Shown piece after piece: positions 18,001-51,000 of a stretch of 64,000 nt of DNA. Source of the stretch: Perna viridis (lineage: Eukaryota); NCBI GenBank assembly GCA_037379345.1, contig CM074516.1, forward strand, positions 38,353,626 through 38,417,625, read 5' to 3'. The position numbers are program-made. Numbering within the stretch: the first letter of the stretch is position 1; the number at the start of each line of letters is the position of its first letter.

Positions 18001-21000
18001 TTTGTGAAGGCCTCCACTTTTTCTTTTCCTAAAATAGACATTTTTAGCATATCCTTTATAATCTCAGATCAGGTTGTTGATTAATTTACAAACCTATTTT
18101 CTTACCTTTAGGTGACTGGTTGTTTAAGACAGAATTACTAGAAGAGCATGGTATACAGTTAGTAAGAGTGGAGGATGAGTTGGTAGATAAGATTTGGACA
18201 ACAGGAAGACCACCAATACCAAGATCAAAGATACATTCCATGATGTTCAAATTTACTGGTAAGATTGGATGTCTACATGAATCAAATTTACTGTATTGTT
18301 ATAAGGAATATGTATGCATTACCTTGGCCTTACAACATTGCAGAAAAAAAATGGCACGCTGACAATTTTAATTAAACAGGTATTTGCAGGAAATTTAAGA
18401 GCTAAAATAATTATCATAATTTACTAGAAATTTTTATTTTATCTGAATTGTAATTAACTATCTTCAGTTCAGTCAGACTGACACAAAACAAGATGCTCAT
18501 GTACAAAACATTATAAAATCCTGGAAATTAGGAATCTCTATGTAAAAGAACCATTTATTGAAGGTGACAAAAAATAAACTGTCTTTTAATCTCATTGACT
18601 TGCATATAAATTGGCATAAAAACAATTAATTTTGAATACTTCTTTAATAAATTAGCCATTTTTGACTGGTTGAGAACATTTTTGCCAGAAAGTTCATACT
18701 TGAGGAACTTCTTCAGATCATTAATATATGCTTGAATGCCGGTCAGATTGAAACCAATATGGCCACTGTGTAGTATTGGAACAATGCCTTTTAAAAAGGA
18801 ACTAAAGAGAAGAAAAAAAATATTTTAGATATTCTGCATTGAAGTTTTAAATGAAAACTTTACACTTACTATCAGTTTTCAATGTCAACTATCACTTTGT
18901 CCATGCCGCCTTTACTGTCGTTGTTCCGCGGATTTGATATCGATTATGTGTAAATATTCCTCCGCGCTCCCATACGTGTGCAAGGGAACAGTGTATCAAT
19001 ATATCTGACTGAGGCTTTCAGAGGGTAACTTTTGATTGCTTGACAGAATTATAAGGATTATACAGCTATTTTCAGTCATTTGTGTATATATGAATGGATC
19101 TCTCCACTCCCAAACATTACATGAACGGCCTATAGGTGTTCATTGAGTTTGGGAGCTACAAGATCCATTTATACATGCATGAAGGATCGAAAATAGGTAT
19201 TTAATCCTTATAATAGTCTTCTTTTTTAATTTGATTTCACCAGGAAAGACTTGGGAAAACAAAGTTACAGATGTACAGGAGGAGATGGCAGAAAAAAATG
19301 TTGATGCATTGGTCATTACTAGCCTAGATGAAGTAGCTTGTAAGTACAGAGGTAAAAGGTTAAATCTAAGAATAGGATAGAAATTAAAAAACAACAAAAT
19401 ACTAACAGTAGCATCATCAGTAAAAATATATTAGATAACAAGCTAAAAGATAACAAGGAACTCAAAGCCAACAAGAATTGTTGCAAATTAGGAAATCAAT
19501 TCAAGAATAGTCAAGGTCTATTCTAATGGTACTAGTGTCTGCTGTTTTTATCTGCTGACTCCAAAATTGATAGAACAACTCCAATCTCTAAATCAAATGT
19601 GATTTTGAAAACTTAGTAAAAGCAATTTAAATCTAAATAACTGTTTTCATAGTCAGAAAAGCTTTTTCTTTTTAGAATATTTTAACTCTATACTTGTCAA
19701 GGATATATGTTTCAGGGTTAACAAACTGTAGAGCATCAGATGTACCTTATAACCCTGTATTTATGTCATATGTCATCATTGATAGGCCAACAAATACTAC
19801 CAAGTAAGTCATAACATCTCACTGACTTCACTAAAATCCAACTATTCAAAGTATGTTTTTTTTGTTTGCTGATGACATCACAGTCCATTTGACTTAATGT
19901 TTTTATTGGTAATTGCCAATATTTAACAGTATCACAGAAGTAGCATGAGATTTAAAATATCAGGCTGTAACAGAAATGGAAAATGATCAAGCTGTAAATA
20001 AACTATCATATGAGGTCATAATGGATGGCAGTGACAATATAAACACTGAGTAAAGTCATAATGGATGGCAGTGACTATAAACACTGAGTACAGTCAAATG
20101 GAGGGCAGTGACAATATAAACACTGAGTAAAGTCATAATGGATGGCAGTGACAATATAAACACTGAGTAAAGTCATAATGGATTGCAGTGACAATATAAA
20201 CAGTGAGTAAAGTCAAATGGATGGCAGTGACAATATAAACATTGAGTAAAGTCATAATGGATGGCAGTGACAATATAAACACTGAGTAAAGTCAAATGGA
20301 TGGCAGTGACAATATAAACATTGAGTAAAGTCATAATGGATGGCAGTGACAATATAAACATTGAGTAAAGTCATAATGGATGGCAGTGATAATATAAAGA
20401 GTGAGTAAAGTCATAATGGATGGCAGTGACGATATAAACACTGAGTAAAGTCAAATGGATGGCAGTGAAAATATAAACACTGAGTAAAGTCAAATGGATG
20501 GCAGGGACAATATAAAGAGTGAGTAAAGTCAAATGGATGGCAGTGACAATATAAACATTGAGTAAAGTCATACTGGATGGCAGTGACAATATAAACACTG
20601 AGTAAAGTCATAATGGATGGCAGTGACAATATAAACAGTGAGTAAAGTCATAATGGATGGCAGTGACAATATAAACACTGAGTAAAGTCAAATGGAGGGC
20701 AGTGACAATATAAACACTGAGTAAAGTCATAATGGATGGCAGTGACAATATAAACAGTGAGTAAAGTCATAATGGATGGCAGTGACAATATAAACACTGA
20801 GTAAAGTCAAATGGAGGGCAGTGACAATATAAACACTGAGTAAAGTCATAATGGATGGCAGTGACAATATAAACACTGAGTAAAGTCAAATGGATGGCAG
20901 TGACAATATAAACACTGAGTAAAGTCATAATGGATGGCAGTGACAATATAAACAGTGAGTAAAGTCAAATGGATGGCAGTGACAATATAAACAGTGAGTA

Positions 21001-48000: not shown

Positions 48001-51000
48001 AAATGATATTCATCCTCTATGTTCCCACTATCACATGATTTACATATACATTTTTTTTCTATATATATTTTTGTATCGACCCCTTTCTATTTCTAGTGCA
48101 TGTGCACTTAAACGAAATTTACTGATGATAGTTCTTTCTATTTTAGATTTATATAAGTTGATGTATGGGGGTCTTTTAGACGGAATAGATATTTTACGGA
48201 AAAATTAAAGTTTTTCATTCATAGTAAGTGAGCCTACCAAATTTTGCTTAAATTGATCGTGCGGTCTTTGTTCGATTCTTTTGATATAAAATTGAAGGTT
48301 ATTAAGTTGTAAGTTAAGATGACAGAACCCCAATTTATTTAGTATATTTTTTTACATGGGACATCCACAAGTTGTTCCTTTTAACTTCTCTGAACTTCTC
48401 TGATATATATATCGTTCCATTCCCCTGAATTCAGACCAACTCTCCTCTTTCAGAAGCCGAAGCCGAATGTGAGGTTTGCAGAATATTCGAAGAATGTATT
48501 ATTTACTTGTCTTAAAAGGGGGTCATTTATTTATCATCTTATGTCGTCTTGACGGAAACCGCTTAGGAACACAGATATTTGATGTGGACCGAAAATATAT
48601 TACTTATTCCAAATTTCCTCTGATCCTGCAACCCTGCTCTTTATTATTGGGATATTGATGTATCAGGTTGGGACGTCCGAATTTCTTATGCCGGATAAAA
48701 GCTCTACAGAGCTTATGTTATATTGTTATATGTAAAACCGACTTTAAATAAATCTTTTATGCTTATGCTTTTGTTGGGACGCAACCGGACATGTGAAAAT
48801 CCAAATAAAAAAAGAGGAGGGTTGCAGGGTCAGAGGAAATTCGGACTATACATCACTATGTTTGTCTTTACTCCAGCAGTGCTAGAGGTTGTCTGGCAAG
48901 ATAACGTTTAGTAGGCTTGTAGGGGCTGATACAGGAATTTAAGAATTAGAGGGCACACTGACTGACCAAAGGAAGGGCACAGAATCATGCTTCAGTGATT
49001 TTCTTTCAATTCAACGAATTTCCCCCAGGCACCAGCCTCTATACAACTTTGTTCGGCAGATATTTTTAGCAGTGGTAAATCTGAAATCTATGAATGAGTT
49101 ACTTATTAAATTATTCGGCACATATTTCAGCCAGCAAAGCAGTAATCATTTGATTTTCTTGAGGCTGTAGAATTTTTTTTCTGAGCCTAAATTGTTTTTT
49201 TTTTCATTAGAAGTTGAAAAAAAATCTTCAGATACTTATATTGTACATGAAGCTGAGAATAAAACATACATTTTTTTTTAAATAACTTGGGACAAATTGT
49301 AATAAATTTTGAAACCAACTAAAGCTACTAAAGCTGAGTGGAACACACATTTTTTAGTTTCATTTTTTTGGGACAAATTATTCAAAAAAAAAAAAAATTA
49401 AAAAAATTAAAAAAAACAACATTTTTTTGGAAAAATTAAAAAAAAATTATGATTTAAAATTAAAAAAAAGCATAGCCCCACAGATAATCAATATAGTTGC
49501 TGCCTAAAAACATACCAAAACAAGAAATGACAAACTTCTGTGTATGTACAACAATATATCATTGGAGCAAATTAACTTTATTTTTTTGTCAGTTTTATGT
49601 CACATTGGAAAATGTGGGTGGACCAAGGAAGAAATAAGAAATATGTCACCACAGGACAGACCATCATGTCATCCATTGCCTGTAAGTACTACACTTAGTG
49701 TCAATTTTGTGCTGCCTATTTGCATTGCAATATACTGAAAACAATTAACTGTAATGGAAGTGGACAGTTTAGTGTTCTTTACCTGGTGTTATTCTCTGTT
49801 CTTATTGGGAAAGCCTGAACCAATTTAGCACCATTGCAGTGGTTTCTTACTTCTTGGTTTTTACCCTGATACTGCCATTTGTTATACAAGCTTTAATTTT
49901 TTACTTTTCCTTTTGACTATTGCCTTGAGTTTTTAAGTTCAGTAGTGTCACACTTTTTGTCACCCCAGGAAAGACTACCCTGTCAACCATTGCCTGTAAG
50001 TATATGTCACATCAGGACAGACAATCACTTCATGTTAACAAAACTTCACCTAGATTTAAGAAGCTTGCAGGACAGGGAACATTGTGCAATTCTCCTATTC
50101 ATATTTTATCCCTAGATAGAAGCAAGTCCTTACCTAACCTCAATACATGTATTCCTATTTCAGACACCATCTATAATACAGATAGACACTACACAGAGGC
50201 TGTCAGATCTAAGGAGCCATTTTAGATCTGTTGGGATAAAAGGATATATCATACCCTCTGTTGATGCTCATCAGGTATGTAACAGTTTGATAAAACCTTT
50301 CAATATATACAGGGTTCAACACTTAAGTAGCAGTCTTTATAAAAATCAGGCAGTGGGTGATTCATTCATGTTAAAAAACCCACCAATTTCAGTTTTATTC
50401 CTTGTTCAGGATCACCTTACCAGTCTTAGTTTTTTATTTTGTTGTTGCGCTTTTGAGATAAAGATTATATGGATTGTACATGAAATTGGCATTTTGCAAG
50501 AGTAATTGTTCTTGATTTGGTTTGATTTGGTTGATTTTAGTTAAAATGTAATTTTCTTAAAAATTCAGATGAAAATACAGAAAGGACTATTGTCACATAA
50601 AAATGTAGCATATGTAGACCAAAAAGGCATCTTCCAATCCATGGGTTTTTCTACACCATGAATCACTTTACCATGGGCAGTGTCTGAATTTCATATGGAC
50701 TGGTATTTAAGTGGTTTGATAGTCATATGCCTAGAGAGACTGCCTTGAAAATGTTATTGGTAGTCTTTAGGCTTCTTGAATTAATTGTTAGAAATTTATG
50801 TCCTAAGAATAGCTCTGCTAATTACTAGGATACCTAGTTTATCTAAAATAGCCCAGTGGATTACATAGCGAGCAGAGTTGGTTTCATATCCTGGATATAA
50901 GATTCCAACATCTGCAACATCTTATCATGCCAATGAAAAAAATAACAAAATTTTTGCCAATTATAAATGTTTATAGTTCATGTATATACATGATCAATTG

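What the first reader, a model, noticed from the sequence alone, without database searches (positions are those of the whole stretch)
19772..50030. Recurrent process: tandem repeats nucleated at exon/5'-splice-site junctions
Seen: three clear independent cases (copy 1 introns 15 and 18; copy 2 intron 2) and one tentative case (copy 1 intron 9). In each, the repeat unit spans the exon end and donor and amplifies only into the intron. No acceptor-side equivalent was seen. Stages differ: two copies, a fresh polar array, an old decayed array. Inference: either a mutational process tied to donor sites (polymerase pausing, R-loops), or a selective filter in which such duplications survive because the first donor keeps the mRNA intact. 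Either would be a route to intron growth, decoy donors and new exons.
Basis: inference. Interest (0 to 1): 0.7.

Follow-up and report, generated by a model that had tools for sequence, protein, structure and literature searches.

The report
Intron minisatellites seeded from splice-donor junctions
In one of two neighbouring copies of a mussel-like aminopeptidase gene, two introns have been inflated by tandem repeats copied from the end of the preceding exon plus its splice donor, an arrangement already known from several human genes and not shown here to be commoner than chance.

Summary
The window holds two tandem + strand copies of a bivalve Xaa-Pro aminopeptidase gene (old duplicates: dS about 1.1, dN/dS 0.10).

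- **Copy 1 intron 18:** 25 units of 68 nt (27985-29499). Unit 1 is the last 60 nt of exon 18 plus GTGAGTAA. Decay is polar.
- **Copy 1 intron 15:** 13 decayed units of about 62 nt, starting 12 nt inside exon 15.
- **Copy 2 intron 2:** 1.7 junction copies, but 269 nt away from the donor.

The tentative case, the 39-nt array in intron 9, is not junction-derived. I found one further two-copy case in copy 2 intron 15.

The link to donors is not established. In a uniform census, 3 of 23 local repeat families span a donor, against 1.2-1.6 expected (P 0.10-0.22). None spans an acceptor (P 0.19-0.30). Breakpoints sit at varying distances from the donor. "Amplifies only into the intron" is true by definition.

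Minisatellites whose first monomer spans an exon-intron boundary are known in human F7, CBS, IFI 6-16, LMNB2 and PDGF, where the most upstream donor is used. These are new members of a known kind. A genome-wide test remains undone.

The parts
10643..33309 (+).
   Evidence: tblastn of a named Mytilus trossulus protein (P0003) exon by exon. Pfam Peptidase_M24 and M24_C on single exons. The 5' end and start codon are unresolved.
49580..64000 (+). Copy 2 of the same gene, exons 2-16, cut off by the end of the window
   Evidence: Against copy 1: dS about 1.1 and dN/dS 0.10, from counts summed over 10 exon pairs.
27940..28044 (+). Copy 1 exon 18 (encodes ...[16 protein letters not shown]); true donor AAG|GTGAGT at 28045
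27985..29499 (+). 68-nt junction-derived minisatellite of 25 units. Unit 1 is the last 60 nt of exon 18 plus GTGAGTAA. It shows polar decay, and distal units share a 12-nt deletion.
   Evidence: TRF; profile hits; register; gradient and decoy donors.
25259..25408 (+). Copy 1 exon 15; donor ACAT|GTAAGT
25397..26206 (+). Old junction-derived array of about 62 nt and 13 units. Unit 1 is the last 12 nt of exon 15 plus about 50 nt of intron. The tail of the last unit continues at about 26607-26627, beyond an inserted element.
   Evidence: A profile trained on the interior alone hits the junction at E 6e-4; iterated profile; rows in register.
26194..26606 (.). Dispersed element of about 413 nt inserted into the last unit of the intron 15 array, flanked by a 13-nt direct repeat
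   Evidence: A second, inverted copy lies at 14549-15066 (93-100% identity); flanks shown.
49641..49688 (+). Copy 2 exon 2 tail plus donor (exon ends at 49681): the source unit of the intron 2 copies
49958..50033 (+). 1.7 tandem copies of the copy 2 exon 2/donor junction, 269 nt inside intron 2. The first keeps CCT|GTAAGT.
   Evidence: 87% of 45 nt, 0 of 2000 shuffles; E 9e-11 and 8e-5; the spacer is unrelated to anything in the window.
63290..63364 (+). Copy 2 exon 15/donor junction (exon ends at 63309) and one adjacent diverged copy, period 40.
   Evidence: Score 26; 5 of 2000 dinucleotide shuffles; 1 of 400; sequence.
20015..21639 (+). 39-nt array (79-nt higher order), 41 copies, 95% matches, in copy 1 intron 9. 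It is an ordinary intronic array, not derived from the junction.
18247..18293 (+). The last 12 nt of copy 1 exon 7 are repeated exactly 35 nt downstream, without the GT. A weak case that may be chance.

Best explanation
These are ordinary intronic minisatellites whose founding short tandem duplication happened to straddle a 5' splice site.

Inferred: a duplication of 40-70 nt arose by slippage or unequal exchange somewhere in the gene. Where it contained the exon tail plus the donor, the first donor kept its exon context, so the mRNA stayed intact. Every later copy then lies, by definition, in the intron.

Shown: the arrays later grew to 13 and 25 units and decayed like neutral sequence.

Inferred: in intron 18 the turnover stayed concentrated at the exon-near end.

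Shown: the result is intron growth and a row of decoy donors.

Inferred from human work, not tested here: the decoys stay silent because the most upstream donor is used. Use of a decoy would in any case hit an in-frame TAA.

Several cases occur in one gene pair because these introns are full of local repeats. No donor-specific process is needed.
For: - Anatomy: units begin inside conserved coding sequence and run on in register.
- The exon sequence is ancestral. It is shared with the paralogue and with Mytilus proteins.
- Copy 2 introns 9 and 15 are short (914 and 375 nt), so the big arrays are later additions in copy 1.
- Density of local repeats: 26 of 300 intronic control sites have a downstream local copy. 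There are 23 repeat families in the two genes.
- Donor hits are close to expectation: 3 observed against 1.2-1.6 expected, P 0.10-0.22.
- The donor sits at varying places within the unit.
- In the 24 extra units of intron 18, the nine splice-site columns are conserved no better and no worse than the rest (0.83 against 0.82; rank 28 of 60 sliding windows). That is neutral decay.
- Read-through gives HEGE* and QYM*.
- Literature: PMC1557585 (abstract, introduction passages and the Discussion read). It describes minisatellites whose first monomer spans an exon-intron boundary in several human genes. In F7 all pseudo-sites are functional, yet only the most upstream site is used.
Against: - Of the three arrays with 5 or more copies in the two genes, two start at a donor. 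Random founder placement gives P 0.008, though this subset was chosen after the fact.
- The joint outcome of 3 or more donors and no acceptor has P about 0.03.
- Both paralogous introns 15 carry junction copies. This means either shared ancestry or recurrence at the same site.
- No RNA data show which donors are used. No population data show that the arrays vary in length.
Confidence: 0.7

Rival explanations
1. A mutational hotspot at 5' splice sites (pausing, R-loops or breaks coupled to transcription or splicing) seeds or expands tandem duplications preferentially at donors.
For: - 4 solid donor cases of 35 and none of 34 acceptors.
- 2 of the 3 arrays with 5 or more copies begin at donors, P 0.008, chosen after the fact.
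- Junction copies occur in intron 15 of both paralogues, with different periods (62 and 40 nt), which fits recurrence.
- Two units end just after the donor consensus, at +8 and +6.
Against: - Per site, donors are not hit more often than intronic controls (5 of 35 against 26 of 300, p 0.35).
- Per family, 3 of 23 against 1.2-1.6 expected.
- Breakpoints are not fixed relative to the donor.
- Founder units have no unusual hairpin potential (z -0.45, -0.69, +0.24).
- I found no such mechanism or genome-wide enrichment in print.
Confidence: 0.13
2. The arrays are kept by selection as rows of U1-binding decoy donors, for example to tune splicing, dampen expression through nonsense-mediated decay, or protect a long intron from premature polyadenylation.
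For: Intron 18 holds 10 strong decoy sites. Two have 9-mers identical to the true donor, at 28317 and 28453.
Against: - The splice-site columns decay at the same rate as the other columns.
- Intron 15 decoys carry the weaker GTAGGT or worse.
- The paralogue does without the large arrays.
Confidence: 0.05
3. The arrays are satellites carried in by a mobile element, or assembly artefacts, and only resemble the exon ends by chance.
For: Mobile elements are active here: a 413-nt element sits inside the intron 15 array.
Against: - Units are found nowhere else in the window.
- They are contiguous and in register with conserved coding sequence.
- Graded decay over 25 units is not what a collapsed or duplicated assembly gives.
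- No inverted repeats flank the arrays examined.
Confidence: 0.03

Closest known systems
Human F7 intron 7 minisatellite (37-nt VNTR). Same class: IFI 6-16 intron 2, CBS intron 13, LMNB2 and PDGF intron 4, as listed in PMC1557585.
   Same: The first monomer spans the exon-intron boundary, so the donor is repeated down the intron. Array sizes are similar: 5-26 monomers of 31-100 nt there, 13 and 25 units of 62-68 nt here.
   Different: - The host is a bivalve.
- Far more exon is included (60 nt against 4 nt in F7).
- The arrays here are old and decayed rather than identical monomers.
- There are several cases in one pair of paralogues.
- Splicing behaviour and length polymorphism are untested here.
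Internal tandem repeats at exon-intron boundaries of human genes in segmental duplications (PMC2812944; abstract and passages read)
   Same: Tandem repeats at boundaries differ between recent paralogues and change intron structure.
   Different: Those cases are reported to form novel introns and alternative transcripts. Here the introns pre-exist: intron 15 sits at the same position in both copies, and no transcript evidence is available.
Intron gain by tandem duplication of an AGGT-containing exon segment (recalled; PMC4974935 seen only in a search listing)
   Same: A tandem duplication supplies duplicate splice signals.
   Different: No new intron is created here. An existing intron is lengthened.
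Polar turnover of human minisatellites such as MS32 (recalled from general knowledge, no call)
   Same: Intron 18 shows a one-ended gradient of unit similarity.
   Different: No mutation or recombination data exist here. The fresh end is the one next to the exon.

Membership tests
Junction-spanning intronic minisatellite (F7 IVS7 type) | Head-to-tail array of monomers of about 10-100 nt | tested here: met
   Intron 18 has 25 units of 68 nt. Intron 15 has 13 units of about 62 nt. Copy 2 intron 15 has only 2 units. Copy 2 intron 2 has 1.7 units, detached by 269 nt.
Junction-spanning intronic minisatellite (F7 IVS7 type) | The first monomer contains the exon-intron boundary, so the donor sequence is reiterated in the intron | tested here: met
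   Register -60/+8 for intron 18 and -12/+52 for intron 15. There are 10 further sites matching the donor consensus at 8 or more of 9 positions in intron 18.
Junction-spanning intronic minisatellite (F7 IVS7 type) | Only (or mainly) the most upstream donor is used in splicing | not testable with these tools
   No transcript data. Only the in-frame stops after the true donors could be shown.
Junction-spanning intronic minisatellite (F7 IVS7 type) | Copy number varies between alleles (VNTR) | not testable with these tools
   Only a single haplotype is in the window.
Intron gain by tandem duplication | The intron is absent from relatives that lack the duplication | tested here: not met
   Introns 2 and 15 are at the same positions in both paralogues. 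Intron 18 of copy 2 lies outside the window.
Satellite carried by a mobile element | The same unit occurs at other loci, or terminal repeats / target-site duplication flank the array | tested here: not met
   No unit copies outside each array within the 64 kb. No inverted repeats flank the intron 9 array. The rest of the genome could not be searched.

The most novel reading that the evidence does not exclude
In this bivalve, arrays whose unit contains a 5' splice site are born or expand more readily than other intronic repeats. The bias could be a donor-linked mutational one, or an advantage of units anchored to a selected exon copy. Junction-seeded minisatellites would then be a regular route of intron growth. 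The hints are that 2 of the 3 large arrays start at donors (P 0.008, chosen after the fact), that there are no acceptor cases, and that the same donor is affected in both paralogues.
Probability: 0.13. Interest if true: 0.6.

Novelty: new member of a known kind. Interest (0 to 1): 0.3.

Why it matters
It gives a clear, datable example outside vertebrates of introns growing from their own exon/donor junction: 77% of one intron is exon-derived repeat. It also offers a natural row of decoy donors of graded age for studying how the true site is chosen. It does not by itself show a new mutational process.

Tried and rejected
- **Intron 9 array as a junction derivative:** rejected. Alignment of its flanks with copy 2 intron 9 gave nothing usable, and there are no flanking inverted repeats.
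- **Hairpin-driven slippage:** founder units fold no better than shuffles as single-stranded DNA (63, 40 and 117 of 200 shuffles fold at least as well). One derived intron 18 unit does fold better (3 of 200).
- **Origin of the 269-nt spacer in copy 2 intron 2:** it has no similarity to the unit, to the rest of the intron, to the 5' part of exon 2, to copy 1 intron 2, or to anything else in the window.
- **Short-unit significance estimate:** an early estimate from TRF and BLAST families only (3 of 4 at donors) looked significant. It was dropped once the uniform tile census found 23 families.
- **Rfam:** no family in the window at gathering score.
- **Pfam:** nothing on three intergenic ORFs.
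- **Junction BLAST census:** the output was partly cut, so the counts rest instead.
- **Primary paper on the IFI 6-16 minisatellite:** not held.
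Full report
**What the window is.** The 64 kb has no N and is 33% G+C. A single-exon query found Xaa-Pro aminopeptidase proteins. The best named hits come from Mytilus coruscus and M. trossulus, at 82% identity over that exon. tblastn of the named M. trossulus protein P0003 against the window maps two + strand gene copies:
- Copy 2 runs from 49580 to the end of the window (exons 2-16).

Single exons match Pfam Peptidase_M24 and Peptidase_M24_C. 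Exon ends were snapped to GT/AG by script, and paralogous exons have equal lengths. There is no RNA evidence, and exon 1 is unverified. Every search was made exon by exon, and the joined step was left out. Substitution counts summed over 10 exon pairs give dS of about 1.1 and dN/dS of 0.10. The duplication is therefore old and both copies have been under constraint.

**Intron 18 of copy 1.** TRF reports a 68-nt array from 27993, with decayed continuations.
- A profile of the first units finds 25 consecutive + strand units from 27985 to 29499 and none elsewhere in the window.
- Written in rows of 68 from 27985, unit 1 is the last 60 nt of exon 18 plus the first 8 nt of the intron (GTGAGTAA). 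The row before it shows no similarity.
- The intron is 28045-29924 (1880 nt). Extra units fill 1447 nt of it.
- Identity to unit 1 falls from 93% near the exon to 73% at the far end (Spearman -0.71, p 9e-5).
- Ten further sites match MAG|GTRAGT at 8 or more of 9 positions. Two are identical to the true donor. The other introns have 8 such sites in 31147 nt.
- Across the 24 extra units the nine splice-site columns are kept no better than the others (0.83 against 0.82; rank 28 of 60 windows).
- Read-through of the true donor gives HEGE and then a stop.

**Intron 15 of copy 1.** TRF misses this array.
- A profile trained only on 25470-26840 finds the exon/donor junction at 25397-25439, in register, with E 6e-4. 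Outside the training stretch it finds otherwise only the paralogous junction (E 0.93).
- Thirteen units of about 62 nt run from 25397 to 26206. Unit 1 holds the last 12 nt of exon 15.
- A 413-nt dispersed element (26194-26606) interrupts the last unit. It has an inverted copy at 14549-15066.
- There is no clear polarity.
- Read-through gives QYM and then a stop.

**Intron 2 of copy 2.**
- The junction 49644-49688 recurs at 49958-50002 (87% of 45 nt; 0 of 2000 shuffles) and in part at 50002-50033.
- These copies lie 269 nt from the donor. The spacer resembles nothing tested.
- This is therefore a detached pair rather than an array that starts in the exon.
- Copy 1 intron 2 has no equivalent (152 of 300 shuffles reach its best score).

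**Intron 9 of copy 1.**
- The 39-nt array (41 copies, 95% matches) begins 211 nt after the donor.
- Its best match to the junction is a gapped 13-column match (12 identical) that 1367 of 2000 shuffles equal.
- Its profile gives no hit at the junction.

**New cases.**
- Copy 2 intron 15 has one adjacent diverged copy of its own junction, with a period of 40 nt (5 of 2000 shuffles).
- The last 12 nt of copy 1 exon 7 recur 35 nt downstream without the GT. This is weak and may be chance.

**Is the donor link more than chance?**
- *Per-site test.* I used a 41-nt query against 400 nt on the intron side. It is positive for 5 of 35 donors, 0 of 34 acceptors, and 26 of 300 intronic control sites. The controls were drawn from 12871 eligible positions with the arrays in question excluded.
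- *Fisher tests.* Donors against controls give p 0.35, or 0.54 without the exon 7 case. Acceptors against controls give 0.09. Donors against acceptors give 0.054, or 0.11 without the exon 7 case.
- *Tile census.* A census of both genes finds 25 clusters, which I merged into 23 families. Three span a donor and none spans an acceptor.
- *Random founder placement.* It expects 1.2-1.6 donor hits, with P(3 or more) of 0.10-0.22. P(no acceptor) is 0.19-0.30. The joint outcome has P of about 0.03.
- *Large arrays only.* For the three arrays with 5 or more copies, P(2 or more at donors) is 0.008. This subset was chosen after seeing the data.

The excess is therefore not established from this window.

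**Mechanism.**
- The units contain the donor at varying positions: -60/+8, -12/+52, -20/+20 and -41/+6. This fits random founders that happen to span a donor better than a break fixed at the donor.
- Founder units show no unusual hairpin potential.
- 'Amplifies only into the intron' follows from the definition of the intron once the first donor is used.
- A filter that merely tolerates donor duplications cannot enrich them over intron interiors.
- The weak lack of acceptor cases could reflect selection, but it is not significant here.

**Known parallels.** PMC1557585 (abstract, introduction passages and Discussion read) states that several human genes hold minisatellites whose first monomer spans an exon-intron boundary: F7, IFI 6-16, CBS, LMNB2 and PDGF. 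It shows for F7 that all pseudo-sites are functional but only the most upstream one is used. PMC2812944 (passages read) reports 27 intron modifications in human segmental duplication genes from tandem repeats at exon-intron boundaries. Searches found no genome-wide donor-against-acceptor test and no bivalve report. Supplements were closed.

**Verdict.** The repeats are real and the junction origin holds for three of the four cases, plus one new case. They are new members of a known kind. The proposed donor-specific process remains an untested hypothesis.

Noticed in passing
26194-26606 and 14549-15066 (inverted): A dispersed element of about 413 nt is present twice in copy 1 (93-100% identity). 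One copy sits inside the intron 15 array, flanked by a 13-nt direct repeat. The other is itself interrupted around the 23-nt repeat at 14959-15008. No Rfam family matches it.
   Followed up: partly
10604-10705 against 49508-49681: The first coding exon of copy 2 has an in-frame ATG in its open frame. The matching exon of copy 1 has a stop 13 codons upstream of the conserved part and no ATG. The 5' end of copy 1 is therefore unresolved: either another upstream exon or a damaged start.
   Followed up: no
49958-50002; 25516-26187: Intronic junction copies keep states that the neighbouring exon has since changed. The copy 2 intron 2 copy reads CAA (Gln, as in copy 1 and Mytilus) where the exon now has CAT (His). 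Several intron 15 units keep CAG where the copy 1 exon has CAA.
   Followed up: partly
28571-29200: Many distal intron 18 units share a 12-nt deletion, forming a subfamily. This shows that internal units, and not only the exon unit, were the templates for later growth.
   Followed up: partly
41270-41568: A 67-nt tandem array (4.6 copies, 87% matches) lies in the 16-kb stretch between the two gene copies, next to no recognised gene.
   Followed up: no
3436-6873, 11769-12347, 52551-53027, 57642-58038: There are several low-copy local repeats with long units (141-330 nt), upstream of copy 1 and inside introns. They make these introns unusually repeat-rich: 26 of 300 control sites have a nearby downstream copy.
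   Followed up: partly
19876-19917 (- strand): A weak inverted match to the 39-nt unit (E 2.9) lies about 100 nt upstream of the intron 9 array. It is not significant.
   Followed up: no
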